A DNA stretch of 64,000 nt from the NCBI RefSeq assembly GCF_000026545.1, contig NC_011601.1; one strand, written 5' to 3'. The stretch's first letter is position 1; every line of letters begins with the position of its first letter. Below are positions 20,301 through 23,300 of the stretch, one piece after another. The position numbers were made by a program. This DNA is from Escherichia coli O127:H6 str. E2348/69 (lineage in GTDB: Bacteria; Pseudomonadota; Gammaproteobacteria; Enterobacterales; Enterobacteriaceae).

Positions 20301-23300
20301 TCTGGTGGATCATCTCCAATTGTTCTGGTGAAAGGGTGCTAAAGAAGGCTTCACCACCTATCCACACTGAGGTATTTGTCAGGTAGTTAACCATTGTCAG
20401 ATATCTTGCCTGCTCATACAGTTTTTGCCCTTGCAGCACTGAAATTGGGTTTTCTACGCCGTCAATAACGCCCTGGGTTAATGCGGGATAAACTTCGCCT
20501 AATGGCATGGGAGTTGGTGTTGCCCCCATCGCCTGAATGGCTTTTATTTGCATGACGTTATTAGGAACGCGAATTTTTAAACCTGCGAGATCGTCAACGG
20601 TGCGAATGGGTTTTTTCGAAATAATCTGTCGAGTGCCATAGAGATAATTATTCATTACCACATGAATTCCCTTTTTCTTCAGACTTTCATTTTTTTGTTT
20701 AAACCAGTCGCTTTCATATATTTTGAACAGTTTTTGCGGATCGTCAGTCAGATACGGTCCAAACAAAATCCCCAAATCGGGTTCATAATCGGCAAGAAAA
20801 GCCACATCACTCAAGGTTATGACATTCATGCCCATCATGGCTTGCTCGGTGACATCCTGTTTTGATCCCAATTGGGAGCTGGGATAGAGCGCAAGTGTTA
20901 TTTCGCCATTACTTTTTTTATTTAATAGGTCTGCCCAGTAACGCATGACCACATCCAGGGGTTCTCCAGGGTTATTTTCATAGGCAACTTTTATTGAAAT
21001 AGGTTTTGCCTGGATTATTGACGGTAAAAAAAGGTACTGACAGTAATTAGCATCGCTATTATTTTGCTCATCTTTACTTACTCCATGCTAAGGAAATAAA
21101 ACTCCAACATTGTTGTCGGGAGTGAAACCTTATGAAAAAGCAGTCATTACTGAAAAGTAGTCAGCGAATAGCAGAATGGCTGCAGATGTATCATAAATTC
21201 GTGCACCGGGTAATACTTTGCTGCTTTTAATCGGTTTTTAATGCATTTTTTGATTGTATATCTTAAAGTTATGTAATGCATGACGTTACAAGGAACACCC
21301 TCTGATGAGTTTAGTTATCGCAGATAAGATCTCTTATTCGGTTGATGATTTATTAAAAATAAAATCATTAATTTGGCTGCGGTCATTTTTAATTGTCAAT
21401 ACAGATAAAAACTAAGTGTTGACGCAGAATGGTGGTATCCATTAAATTTATTTAGTGCTGATTTAATACATTTGCTGAACGTATAATTCATGCTGATGTT
21501 AAAAGAAAGCCGTCATTCACTAAATAACTTGTTCGGCAAGGAAATCAGAGAGTAACGGATGATTCGTTACAACGGGGAAAGGTAGTAAATATTCACATGG
21601 TGAATTTGTTATCAACTTGAAAACTTATTTTACTGGGTTCCTTCTGATCATGTGAGTGAACGCAGTGATTAATGATTAACGTTAAGTGCTAACCAGAGCG
21701 CTTTTTATGAAGTTAAATTAATAATATCCATTATTTATGAATGAGGAAGCCTGTTTATTATATGGAAATACTTTTAACAATTTTAATTCTTACGTTGGTA
21801 GTATCATTAACCAGCGTGCTTACACGTCTGTCTCCTGTCCAGATACCACTTCCTTTAATCCAGATTGCCGCTGGTGCAGTACTGGCCCAGCCTATATTTG
21901 GTCTGCATGTGGAATTCAATCCTGAACTTTTTCTCTTATTGTTTATACCACCCCTGTTGTTTGCTGAAAGTTCAAAAATACAACCTAAAGAATTGATCAA
22001 GCACAGCCGGGAAATTATCAGCCTGGCACTTGTGTTGGTACTAATCACTATTTTTGGTGTCGGCTATGTGATTCATTTACTCTTACCGAATGTGCCGCTC
22101 ATCGCTGCTTTCGCATTAGCCGCCGTGTTGTCGCCTACCGATGCCGTGGCGTTGCTGGGGATTGTCGGGAAAGGGCGTATCAGCAAAAACATCCAGGAAG
22201 TGCTCGAAGGCGAAGCGTTGATGAATGATGCTTCCGGCCTGGTGGCGTTGAAATTTGCTGTTGCAGTGACGATGGGAACGATGGAATTCAGCGTTCATGG
22301 CGCAACCATTGCGTTTTTTGTCGTTGCGTTGGGCGGTATTGCCGTGGGGATCGCTGTTACCTGGTTATATGGTAAAGGGCTGCTGTTGATCAGCCGATAT
22401 GCTCACGATGAACCTTCCATTCAGATTGTATTGATGCTTCTGTTGCCGTTTATTGTTTATCTGGTTGCGGAACATTTTGGCTTATCTGGCATTCTTGCCG
22501 CTGTCGCCGCGGGGTTAACAACCAGTCGCATTGGCGTAGTCCACCACGCGCCTATTCGCCTGAGAATTAAAGCTAAAAGTAGCTGGTCGATGCTTGAATA
22601 TGTCTTTAACGGCATGGTGTTTCTGATTTTAGGCTTACAACTGCCGGGCATTATTTCGGAATCACTGATCCGTGCAGAAAACGATCCACTGGTGGACACC
22701 GGATCGCTGCTCCTTAATGTCATTTGGATCTACCTGGCGTTAATGGTTGTGCGCCTGGGCTGGCTTTGGCTGATGCGTCTGTATAGCCGTAAACGACCCG
22801 GCAAACATCCGATGCTGTTTGCTGGATATAAAACGCGTCATATGCTGCTGGCGACCTTTGCGGGGGTGCGCGGAGCTATCACGCTTGCGGGGGGGCTTTC
22901 TATCCCGTTATTGCTGCCGGATGGCACACCTTTTCCCGGGCGTTACTTGCTGGTATTTCTCGCCACAGGTGTGATCCTCTTTTCGCTGGTTTGCGGCATT
23001 ATTATTCTGCCGTTATTACTGGGGAAAAATGTGGGGATTTTCAGCGATAACCGACAAAAAGAAGAGGAAGCTGCCGATCTGTTTATGGCTAAAATGGCCA
23101 TACTGAGTGTGCAAAAGACCGAGCAACGTTTGCTGCGCGCCAGAACAGAAAACCTCGATAACGAGTTGATTATGGAAACGGGGGCCAGAGTTATCGGTTA
23201 TATGCGACATAGTGAAGAGGATATGTCGCCTAATGATAATTCCCTGCATATGCAGCGTGCGAAGCTGGAAAGAACATTTAATCTGGCGGCGTTAAATGCC

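What the first reader, a model, noticed from the sequence alone, without database searches (positions are those of the whole stretch)
21072..21761. Long AT-rich divergent control region between the dctP-like gene and the exchanger gene
About 690 bp of strongly AT-rich DNA with no convincing ORF separates the two divergent accessory genes. Such regions in horizontally acquired DNA are typical targets of H-NS silencing and often carry the regulator binding sites for both operons.
Basis: inference. Interest (0 to 1): 0.25.

Follow-up and report, generated by a model that had tools for sequence, protein, structure and literature searches.

The report
Composite AT-rich divergent promoter region
The 690-base gap is real non-coding control DNA, made of an old sugar-acid (L-galactonate) transporter promoter joined to the upstream region of an inserted sodium/proton antiporter gene; H-NS binds the genes on both sides of it in a near-identical strain, so it is ordinary in kind.

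Summary
Window 21072-21761 (E. coli E2348/69) is a 690-bp gap with 33% GC between a divergent dctP-like gene and a CPA1 Na+/H+ antiporter gene. It is the longest of 59 intergenic regions in the window. I found no conserved ORF, tRNA, Rfam family, repeat or unusually stable RNA fold.

- **H-NS:** In UPEC CFT073, whose gap is 683/690 identical, published ChIP-seq lists the flanking genes c5433 and c5435, plus lgoR-like c5436 and lgoD, as H-NS/StpA-bound.
- **dctP side (about 21072-21245):** This is the conserved lgo-regulon transporter control region. It carries a direct-repeat box, ATTAAAA-N4-ATTAAAA. The same box lies upstream of lgoD, and it lies directly after the lgoR stop codon in about 30 Enterobacterales species, whatever transporter follows (LgoT or one of two TRAP types).
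- **Antiporter side (about 21246-21761):** This belongs to an antiporter cassette inserted between lgoR and that promoter. Citrobacter amalonaticus has lgoR-dctPQM with no antiporter. The inserted part holds a TTGACG-N17/18-TAAATT promoter-like site that is invariant across Escherichia lineages, about 305 nt upstream of the start codon.
- **E2348/69 specifically:** dctP carries a 1-bp frameshift.

This is an ordinary kind of feature with a modestly interesting history.

The parts
20101..21071 (-). dctP-like TRAP solute-binding protein gene. It is frameshifted in E2348/69 by a 1-bp deletion at 21033-21034 (GGG to GG).
   Evidence: alignment to CE10; the translation MSKIIAMLITVSTFFYRQ* stops after 18 codons. 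Searches give the family. One search shows PGAP's shortened 281-aa CDS.
21072..21761 (.). The 690-bp AT-rich intergenic region (GC 0.333).
21072..21192 (-). dctP 5' untranslated region. It includes the SD GGAGT (21084-21080) and a small hairpin at 21119-21104. It is colinear with the lgoR-dctP spacer of Citrobacter amalonaticus.
   Evidence: colinear alignment to L021; hairpin; fold z = -1.06, not significant.
21193..21245 (-). Conserved lgo-regulon transporter operator/promoter core: CATTAAAAACCGATTAAAAGCAGCAAAGTATTACCCGGTGCACGAATTTAT.
   Evidence: 42/51 identical to the K-12 lgoT upstream region, score 33 against shuffles of 16.7 +/- 2.1, 0 of 1000 reaching it; blastn matches in 19 loci, in each of those oriented on lgoR starting directly after the lgoR stop; footprint across the species set.
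21225..21242 (-). Direct-repeat 'lgo box' ATTAAAAACCGATTAAAA, the putative LgoR site.
   Evidence: 0 mismatches. (the 14-mer AATCGGYTTTTAAT occurs only here and upstream of lgoD in the 64-kb window)..
21246..21283 (.). Extension of conserved block 1 across Escherichia lineages. It has no counterpart in other genera and its role is unknown.
   Evidence: One search found no significant lgoR 3' relic here.
21284..21417 (.). Variable, indel-rich spacer, 35-55% identical between Escherichia lineages, which is below the third-codon-position level of about 66%.
21419..21448 (+). Sigma-70-type promoter-like site for the antiporter: -35 TTGACG (21419-21424), -10 TAAATT (21443-21448). Both hexamers are invariant while the spacer varies between 17 and 18 nt.
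   Evidence: scan; alignment; present in all 9 Escherichia loci that carry this gap.
21455..21761 (+). Predicted antiporter leader of about 305 nt with no significant structure. It includes the palindrome ATTCACATGGTGAAT (21591-21605), a conserved block at 21647-21686 and the SD AGGAAG (21744-21749).
   Evidence: z = -0.84; no Rfam hit; palindrome; conservation.
21762..23414 (+). CPA1 Na+/H+ antiporter gene, a paralogue of yjcE-type exchangers.
23567..23584 (-). Second, remnant lgo box (ATTAAGTACAGATTAAAA) directly after the lgoR stop codon. This is the other edge of the inserted antiporter segment.
   Evidence: the 21 nt are identical to the same position in E. albertii.
23585..24490 (-). lgoR-like GntR/FCD regulator gene, a diverged allele (87% aa identity to K-12 LgoR).
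24509..24527 (+). lgo box upstream of lgoD (ATTAAAAGCCGATTTAAAA).

Best explanation
The gap is a composite, non-coding, divergent control region with two parts of different origin, inside an H-NS/StpA-bound AT-rich patch.

**Part 1, about 21072-21245.** This is the ancestral promoter/operator of the L-galactonate (lgo) regulon's transporter gene. In most Enterobacterales it lies directly after the lgoR stop codon and drives whichever transporter follows: LgoT, or one of two TRAP systems. It carries a direct-repeat box, ATTAAAA-N4-ATTAAAA, which also lies upstream of lgoD. I infer that the adjacent GntR/FCD regulator LgoR binds this box and makes dctPQM respond to L-galactonate.

**Part 2, about 21246-21761.** This came in with a CPA1 Na+/H+ antiporter gene that was inserted between lgoR and that promoter, and it is what stretched the gap to 690 bp. 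It contains the antiporter's own sigma-70-type promoter-like site (21419-21448), followed by an unstructured leader of about 305 nt.

H-NS/StpA coat the locus and probably keep both units low unless counteracted. In E2348/69 the dctP frameshift probably makes the TRAP side non-functional.

**Shown:** the anatomy, the homologies, the conservation, and H-NS occupancy of the flanking genes in CFT073.

**Inferred:** which protein binds the box, the actual transcription start sites, silencing, and the substrate.
For: - **Real, long and AT-rich:**
- **No coding or RNA gene:**
- **H-NS:** CFT073 ChIP-seq lists c5433, c5435, c5436 and lgoD as bound (0.22, 0.155, 0.108, 0.165; cut-off 0.07), comparable to yjjQ (0.196) and bglJ (0.123). 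dctQ/dctM (c5431, c5432, c5434) are absent from the bound list, so the patch centres on the gap. The CFT073 gap is 683/690 identical to this one.
- **lgo promoter:** a 51-nt ungapped match (42/51) to the K-12 lgoT upstream region, 0 of 1000 shuffles reaching it. The same 51 nt match 19 loci (78-84%), in each of those oriented on lgoR starting directly after the lgoR stop.
- **Box footprint:** the box is conserved after the lgoR stop and upstream of lgoD in almost all of 36 species in about 12 genera, irrespective of transporter type. It survives in the lgoR-lgoD spacer although that spacer is only about 62% identical between the two E. coli haplotypes.
- **Insertion:** C. amalonaticus has lgoR followed by dctP (90% aa identity) with a 184-bp gap and no antiporter. 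That gap aligns colinearly with 21243-21072. A remnant box sits at the lgoR stop in E2348/69.
- **Antiporter promoter:** both hexamers are invariant in four diverged lineages with a variable spacer.
Against: - No transcription start, reporter or binding data exist for this locus in any strain I could find.
- The ChIP values are per flanking gene in another strain, not for the gap itself.
- Comparing the gap with the lgoR-lgoD spacer alone gives only a weak box similarity (shuffle p about 0.02-0.15). The case rests on the lgoT-promoter homology and the cross-genus footprint.
- Block 2, which holds the antiporter promoter, is 70-75% identical between lineages. That is only slightly above the third-codon-position level of about 66%.
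- AT-rich DNA yields many promoter-like hexamers: 8 found against 4.7 +/- 2.2 expected.
- No convincing -35 element accompanies the lgo box, so the dctP start site is unplaced.
- The direction of the event (antiporter insertion in Escherichia, or loss in Citrobacter) is inferred from parsimony only.
Confidence: 0.7

Rival explanations
1. The spacing is explained by an unannotated small protein or small RNA gene inside the gap.
For: Several ORFs of 15-44 aa exist. There are two weak terminator-like hairpins on the minus strand. Blocks of conservation exist at 21184-21283, 21418-21477 and 21647-21686.
Against: Every ORF is interrupted by stops or frameshifts in the Esp_L008 and N50 lineages, and some are broken even in CFT073 or O26. 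There is no Rfam hit at E<=1. Folds are no more stable than shuffles (z = -0.84 and -1.06). No feature is annotated in 859 genomes. The conserved blocks are accounted for by the lgo operator and a promoter-like site.
Confidence: 0.07
2. The gap is the decayed remnant of a gene or mobile element, such as a lost regulator or the 3' end of lgoR, with no current function beyond proximal promoters.
For: Most of the gap evolves faster than synonymous sites and is full of indels. The segment has clear insertion edges marked by two copies of the box.
Against: tblastx against 40 related loci finds nothing. There is no significant similarity to lgoR 3' ends. There are no inverted or tandem repeats typical of mobile elements and no true plasmid match. 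Orthologues of this antiporter in Klebsiella sp. I138, Limnobaculum and Edaphovirga also keep 640-750 bp of non-coding DNA upstream. That argues the long upstream region is a retained property of the gene.
Confidence: 0.1
3. The antiporter is transcribed from a proximal promoter within about 100 nt of its ATG. The conserved TTGACG/TAAATT pair is then fortuitous or serves something else, and the distal 400 bp is only an H-NS nucleation platform.
For: The last 60 nt before the ATG are the best-conserved stretch on that side (72-88%). AT-rich DNA generates chance promoter-like sites. Block 2 conservation is only marginally above neutral.
Against: All twelve hexamer positions are invariant in four lineages while the spacer changes in sequence and length. 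No proximal promoter-like site on the plus strand passed the scan.
Confidence: 0.15
4. The leader of about 305 nt is a structured cis-regulatory RNA, for example a Na+/Li+ or pH-responsive riboswitch-like element, that controls the antiporter.
For: The leader is unusually long and its length is retained across lineages. Ion-responsive riboswitches upstream of cation transporters are known (general knowledge).
Against: No Rfam family matched at E<=1. The fold is no more stable than shuffles (z = -0.84). Leader sequence is poorly conserved (35-55%) outside two short blocks, and it cannot be aligned to the leaders of orthologues in other genera.
Confidence: 0.05

Closest known systems
H-NS/StpA-bound AT-rich divergent intergenic regions of E. 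coli, e.g. yjjP-yjjQ/bglJ in the same window (31500-32117)
   Same: Similar length (618 vs 690 bp), similar GC (0.335 vs 0.333) and the same divergent arrangement. The flanking genes have similar H-NS occupancy in CFT073: yjjQ 0.196 and bglJ 0.123, against c5433 0.22 and c5435 0.155.
   Different: For yjjQ-bglJ, silencing and counter-silencing are described in the literature (my recollection, not checked here). For this gap, only occupancy of the flanking genes in a sister strain is documented. This gap is also demonstrably a fusion of two unrelated upstream regions.
The lgoR-lgoT / lgoD control regions of E. coli K-12 (L-galactonate regulon)
   Same: The dctP-proximal core (21193-21245) is 42/51 identical to the K-12 sequence that starts at the lgoR stop codon and precedes lgoT. 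The same direct-repeat box precedes lgoD. The lgo genes are induced by L-galactonate, and YjjM/LgoR is the pathway regulator (bioRxiv 10.64898/2026.05.20.726482; PMC5934670).
   Different: Here the element drives a TRAP dctPQM operon instead of the MFS gene lgoT. It is also separated from lgoR by a 2.3-kb antiporter insertion, so it faces a divergent gene rather than following lgoR.
TRAP transporters for L-galactonate/L-fuconate encoded next to lgoD in other bacteria (Chromohalobacter salexigens Csal_1738-1731; Halomonas Lgo/Lfo)
   Same: A TRAP system sits beside lgoD and a local regulator (PMC5507952). The closest solved relative of this DctP is PDB 4OVT (490 bits), followed by 4O8M (274 bits). 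I recall both as sugar-acid-binding proteins, but their ligands were not verified here.
   Different: The substrate of the E. coli system is untested. No antiporter is described at those loci.
YjcE-type CPA1 Na+/H+ exchangers of Enterobacterales
   Same: Same family (TIGR00831). Identity is 57-59% to the orthologues found after ghxP in Dickeya, Franconibacter and Budvicia.
   Different: yjcE-type genes have 150-320 bp upstream gaps and follow ghxP in tandem. The island-type clade has 510-750 bp upstream gaps and sits next to sugar-acid loci.

Membership tests
H-NS-bound (xenogeneic-silencing type) AT-rich region | AT content well above the genome average | tested here: met
   GC 0.333 against 0.507 for the window.
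H-NS-bound (xenogeneic-silencing type) AT-rich region | H-NS occupancy in vivo (ChIP) | tested here: met
   This is published per-gene ChIP-seq in CFT073, whose gap is 99% identical. c5433 scores 0.22 and c5435 scores 0.155 against a cut-off of 0.07, and both are lost in the hns stpA double mutant. It was measured neither in E2348/69 nor for the gap itself.
H-NS-bound (xenogeneic-silencing type) AT-rich region | Derepression of the flanking genes when H-NS is removed | not testable with these tools
   The stored copy of the supplement cuts off the RNAP-class sheet (1A) before these genes.
H-NS-bound (xenogeneic-silencing type) AT-rich region | Horizontally acquired or accessory DNA | tested here: inconclusive
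   The genes are accessory (863 of 5426 genomes). However, the dctP-proximal third is an old conserved lgo element. Only the antiporter part looks inserted.
lgo-regulon (LgoR) operator/promoter | Sequence homologous to the element that follows lgoR and precedes the lgo transporter gene | tested here: met
lgo-regulon (LgoR) operator/promoter | Same box present upstream of lgoD in the same orientation relative to the target gene | tested here: met
lgo-regulon (LgoR) operator/promoter | Bound by LgoR; expression induced by L-galactonate | not testable with these tools
   I found no binding or expression data for this haplotype.
Sigma-70 promoter (antiporter side) | -35 and -10 hexamers with 16-18 nt spacing | tested here: met
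   TTGACG-N18-TAAATT, 9 of 12 matches to consensus.
Sigma-70 promoter (antiporter side) | Hexamers conserved while the spacer drifts | tested here: met
Sigma-70 promoter (antiporter side) | Mapped transcription start site | not testable with these tools
   No start-site data were found.
Known cis-regulatory RNA / small RNA (Rfam families, including ion riboswitches) | Match to a covariance model | tested here: not met
   0 matches at E<=1 over 20000-23000.
Known cis-regulatory RNA / small RNA (Rfam families, including ion riboswitches) | Fold more stable than shuffled sequence | tested here: not met
   z = -0.84 for the antiporter leader and -1.06 for the dctP leader.
Small protein gene | ORF kept intact across lineages | tested here: not met

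The most novel reading that the evidence does not exclude
The island-type CPA1 antiporter may be a dedicated Na+-recycling partner for Na+-coupled sugar-acid uptake. It has been captured repeatedly next to such loci: the lgo TRAP in Escherichia, a non-orthologous TRAP with its own GntR/FCD regulator in Klebsiella sp. I138 and Limnobaculum, and an MR/MLE dehydratase plus a DASS symporter locus in L014. On this reading, its unusually long upstream region (510-750 bp) is a salt-, pH- or H-NS-responsive control module that travels with the gene.
Probability: 0.2. Interest if true: 0.45.

Novelty: new member of a known kind. Interest (0 to 1): 0.27.

Why it matters
- **Variable metabolic locus.** About one in six complete E. 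coli genomes, including CFT073, IAI39, CE10, O26:H11 and E2348/69, lack lgoT at this locus and carry a TRAP system plus an antiporter instead. lgoT is the only L-galactonate transporter of K-12.
- **Testable predictions.** Because the TRAP operon sits behind the lgo operator, it should be the L-galactonate (or L-fuconate) importer of these strains. E2348/69, with its frameshifted dctP, should be impaired in that uptake. Growth assays can test both.
- **Promoter reuse.** The locus is a clear example of one conserved operator/promoter being reused for three non-homologous transporter cassettes.
- **Origin of a long gap.** It also shows how a long, H-NS-bound 'control region' can arise simply from a gene insertion.

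None of this overturns current understanding.

Tried and rejected
- **Rfam, tRNA, tandem and interspersed repeats:** nothing found.
- **Known transcription-factor consensus scans:** UxuR/ExuR, CRP, KdgR, FadR-type GntR, Fur, FNR, ArcA, IHF, Fis and the H-NS high-affinity motif gave no convincing hit. The only result was a perfect palindrome, ATTCACATGGTGAAT (21591-21605), of unknown meaning.
- **First genome-contig scan with the antiporter:** found nothing.
- **Aligning the gap to the equally long gaps of Klebsiella sp. I138, Limnobaculum and Edaphovirga:** no real similarity beyond the first codons of the antiporter.
- **A second lgo-like box near 21450-21473 on the antiporter side:** rejected. 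It is poorly conserved in the other lineages.
- **A relic of the lgoR 3' end upstream of the box:** rejected as not significant.
- **The 9-mer ATAAATTCG shared with the lgoD promoter:** treated as chance. My back-of-envelope estimate, not a tool result, is about 0.7 such matches by chance.
- **The short 151-bp upstream gap in L003 and the odd context of L015:** set aside. Both antiporter genes are chimeras with a yjcE-like paralogue.
- **Literature searches:** nothing on E2348C_4652-4656, c5432-c5436 (main texts), or lgoR with TRAP. I could not retrieve Vetting et al. 2015 to verify the ligands of PDB 4OVT and 4O8M.
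Full report
**Where we are.** The window matches the E. 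coli E2348/69 chromosome at 100%. The local gene order is:
- tsr (plus strand)
- dctM, dctQ, dctP (minus strand; 18296-21071)
- the gap (21072-21761)
- a CPA1 Na+/H+ antiporter (plus strand; 21762-23414)
- an lgoR-like GntR/FCD regulator (minus strand; 23585-24490)
- lgoD (plus strand; 24629-25651)
- opgB

The TRAP-plus-antiporter arrangement is in 863 of 5426 complete E. coli genomes. K-12-type genomes have the MFS gene lgoT there instead.

**Checking the observation.** The gap is 690 bp with GC 0.333, against 0.507 for the window. It is the longest of 59 intergenic regions in the window. The second longest, yjjP-yjjQ, is 618 bp with GC 0.335. Nothing is annotated in the gap in any of 859 genomes that carry it. 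All ORFs of 15 aa or more are interrupted in the diverged Escherichia lineages, and some are interrupted within E. coli itself. There is no Rfam hit at E<=1, no tRNA or tmRNA and no tandem repeat. The only plasmid-collection hit is a 4.9-Mb, chromosome-sized E. coli record. The two putative leaders fold no better than shuffled sequence (z = -0.84 and -1.06). The observation therefore stands.

One correction applies to E2348/69. Its dctP has lost one G from a GGG run at 21033-21034, so translation from the ancestral ATG stops after 18 codons (MSKIIAMLITVSTFFYRQ*). Three E2348/69 assemblies share this deletion. PGAP annotates a truncated 281-aa CDS that lacks the N-terminal residues that should include the export signal (my inference).

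**H-NS.** I could not run ChIP, but a published data set covers the orthologous locus. Hustmyer et al. (mBio 2022, PMC9765446) mapped H-NS and StpA in UPEC CFT073, which carries the same locus. Its gap is 683/690 identical to this one. Data set S1, sheet 1E, lists the 798 H-NS-bound genes. Occupancy on a scale of 0 to 1 (cut-off 0.07) is:

| Gene | Wild type | hns mutant |
|---|---|---|
| c5433 (dctP-like) | 0.220 | 0.075 |
| c5435 (antiporter) | 0.155 | 0.045 |
| c5436 (lgoR-like) | 0.108 | 0.022 |
| lgoD | 0.165 | 0.066 |

All four fall to about 0.02 in the hns stpA double mutant. For comparison, yjjQ scores 0.196 and bglJ 0.123 in the same list. The TRAP permease genes are not in the bound list, so the bound patch is centred on the gap. 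The values are per gene, they come from a sister strain, and they show occupancy rather than silencing.

**Conservation inside the gap.** I aligned E2348/69, an O26:H11 strain and two diverged Escherichia lineages, L008 and L012/L013. The flanking genes of those two lineages are 83-93% identical to E2348/69, and third codon positions are about 66% identical. Most of the gap falls below that neutral level (35-55%) and is full of indels. Four blocks stand out: 21184-21283, 21418-21477, 21647-21686, and the last 60 nt before the antiporter ATG.

**The dctP-side block is the lgo transporter promoter/operator.**
- A 51-nt stretch on the minus strand (21243 to 21193) is 42/51 identical, without gaps, to the K-12 sequence that begins at the lgoR stop codon and precedes lgoT. 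The score is 33 against 16.7 +/- 2.1 for Markov shuffles, with 0 of 1000 reaching it.
- Within it lies a direct-repeat box, ATTAAAAACCGATTAAAA (21225-21242). A near-identical box, ATTAAAAGCCGATTTAAAA, lies upstream of lgoD (24509-24527) in the same orientation relative to its gene.
- The 14-mer AATCGGYTTTTAAT occurs only at these two places in the 64-kb window.
- I then anchored on LgoR and fetched 36 loci from Citrobacter, Escherichia, Pectobacterium, Samsonia, Enterobacter, Buttiauxella, Phytobacter, Klebsiella, Leclercia and Serratia. In almost all of them the sequence ATTAAgtACcGATTAAAAACAGCAAAc.ATTAcCgGgaGCACGgTTTTAT starts at the lgoR stop codon, and ATTAAAACCCGATTTAAAACATTTTTATGCG sits upstream of lgoD.
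- This holds whether the downstream transporter is LgoT, the E. coli-type TRAP (C. amalonaticus L021, DctP 90% identical) or a second TRAP type (L046, L051; DctP 45%).
- blastn of the whole gap against these loci hits only 21193-21244, and tblastx hits nothing.
- The box also survives in the lgoR-lgoD spacer, although that spacer is only about 62% identical between the E2348-type and K-12-type haplotypes.

Taken alone, the similarity between the gap and the lgoR-lgoD spacer is weak (shuffle p about 0.02-0.15). The argument rests on the lgoT-promoter homology and the cross-genus footprint. That LgoR is the protein binding the box is an inference from position and co-occurrence. The lgo genes are known to be induced by L-galactonate, with YjjM/LgoR as pathway regulator and LgoT as the only K-12 importer.

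**Why the gap is so long.** In C. amalonaticus, lgoR is followed after 184 bp by dctPQM, with no antiporter. That 184-bp spacer aligns colinearly with window 21243 down to 21072. In E2348/69 a second, remnant box (ATTAAGTACAGATTAAAA, 23567-23584) still sits directly after the lgoR stop. Its 21 nt are identical to the same position in E. albertii. The DNA between the two boxes is about 2.3 kb. It comprises the antiporter gene, 150 bp downstream of it and about 515 bp upstream of it, and it looks like an insertion between lgoR and its transporter promoter.

The 690-bp gap is therefore about 175 bp of native lgo control region plus about 515 bp that belongs to the antiporter. Insertion in Escherichia, rather than loss in Citrobacter, is the parsimonious reading but is not proven. 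Orthologues of this antiporter (75-77% identical) in Klebsiella sp. I138, Limnobaculum and Edaphovirga also have 640-750 bp non-coding upstream regions. In the first two these face a non-orthologous TRAP whose DctP is only 26% identical. Those upstream sequences cannot be aligned to the E. coli one. More distant homologues (57-59%) are yjcE orthologues that follow ghxP with only 150-320 bp gaps.

**The antiporter side.** The scan found a TTGACG-N18-TAAATT site at 21419-21448 on the plus strand. Both hexamers are invariant in all nine Escherichia loci that carry this gap, while the spacer changes in sequence and in length (17 or 18 nt). That is the pattern expected of a real promoter, and it predicts a leader of about 305 nt. 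Two caveats apply. Block 2 as a whole is only slightly more conserved than synonymous sites. AT-rich DNA also produces chance promoter-like sites, 8 found against 4.7 +/- 2.2 expected. No lgo box is conserved on this side, so I see no evidence that one regulator site serves both operons. The leader contains a perfect palindrome, ATTCACATGGTGAAT (21591-21605), whose half-sites are kept in the other lineages. I cannot assign it to any regulator.

**Comparison with known systems, and verdict.** In kind this is an H-NS-bound, AT-rich divergent promoter region, like yjjP-yjjQ in the same window. One side is a member of the lgo-regulon control elements. TRAP systems next to lgoD that take L-galactonate/L-fuconate are described in other bacteria (PMC5507952). 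The closest solved relatives of this DctP are PDB 4OVT (490 bits) and 4O8M (274 bits). I recall these as sugar-acid binders but could not verify their ligands.

Nothing here is categorically new. The added value is threefold: an explanation of the gap's length, the assignment of the TRAP operon to the lgo regulon, and the prediction that E2348/69 is defective in this uptake. No publication I could search addresses this locus directly.

Noticed in passing
window 21033-21034 (dctP-like gene, minus strand): E2348/69 has a 1-bp deletion (GGG to GG) at codon 14 of dctP that truncates the frame after 18 codons. Three E2348/69 assemblies share it, while other strains such as CE10 are intact. The CFT073 reference is annotated as frameshifted in this gene, and resequencing (PMC9765446 Data set S1G) reports two 1-bp discrepancies with the reference there, so the reference frameshift may be a sequencing error (my inference).
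   Followed up: yes
window 18254-24870 vs L019 (K-12-type): The two E. coli haplotypes differ by more than the transporter. lgoR, the lgoR-lgoD spacer and the first 250 bp or so of lgoD are only 62-96% identical (per 100-bp window) to K-12. Identity returns to 92-100% from about 24873. This indicates an old or imported 6.6-kb allele.
   Followed up: partly
L020-L055 (36 species), position after lgoR: Three non-homologous transporter cassettes sit behind the same post-lgoR operator in different Enterobacterales: the MFS LgoT, an E. coli-type TRAP in L021, and a second TRAP type in L046, L051 and L054.
   Followed up: partly
L003 6001-7653 and L015 1133-2782: Two antiporter genes are chimeras between the island-type gene and a yjcE-like paralogue. 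In L003 the 5' 900 nt are about 65% identical and the 3' part 97-99% identical. In L015 the first 450 nt are 100% identical and the rest about 60%. These are either recombination between paralogues or assembly chimeras.
   Followed up: partly
L004 about 5552-5621; L009 about 5418-5487; L014 693-762: A block of 70-75 nt (TAAAAATAACCACAAAGACATCT.CCATACAAGAATGTTTGTTTGTTTTTGTGG..TGGATCATGTTTTTATC) is about 80% conserved. It lies in the long gap upstream of the antiporter orthologues of Klebsiella sp. I138, Limnobaculum and an unnamed contig. It is absent from E. coli and its function is unknown.
   Followed up: no
window 21591-21605: A perfect palindrome, ATTCACATGGTGAAT (ATTCA-N5-TGAAT), lies in the putative antiporter leader. 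Its half-sites are conserved in the diverged Escherichia lineages. It fits a T-N11-A pattern, but no regulator could be assigned.
   Followed up: partly
window 23585-24490 (LgoR protein): LgoR is about 70 residues longer than typical FadR-type GntR/FCD regulators. It shows a sub-threshold (E-value-level) Rrf2-like winged-helix hit at residues 90-143, between the GntR HTH and the FCD domain. This may be a second DNA-binding module, which would suit a direct-repeat operator.
   Followed up: no
window 31500-32117: The yjjP-yjjQ gap (618 bp, GC 0.335) is the compositional twin of the studied gap. yjjQ and bglJ are in the CFT073 H-NS-bound list.
   Followed up: partly
window 61700-62347: RefSeq annotates gpmB as a pseudogene with an internal stop in E2348/69.
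   Followed up: no
window 8973-9287 and 10223-10432: RefSeq annotates fragments of a GntR-family regulator gene and of a type I restriction endonuclease gene (hsdR-like) near symE and an Rpn-family nuclease gene. This suggests a decayed restriction-system (immigration control) region, which is my reading of the gene names only.
   Followed up: no
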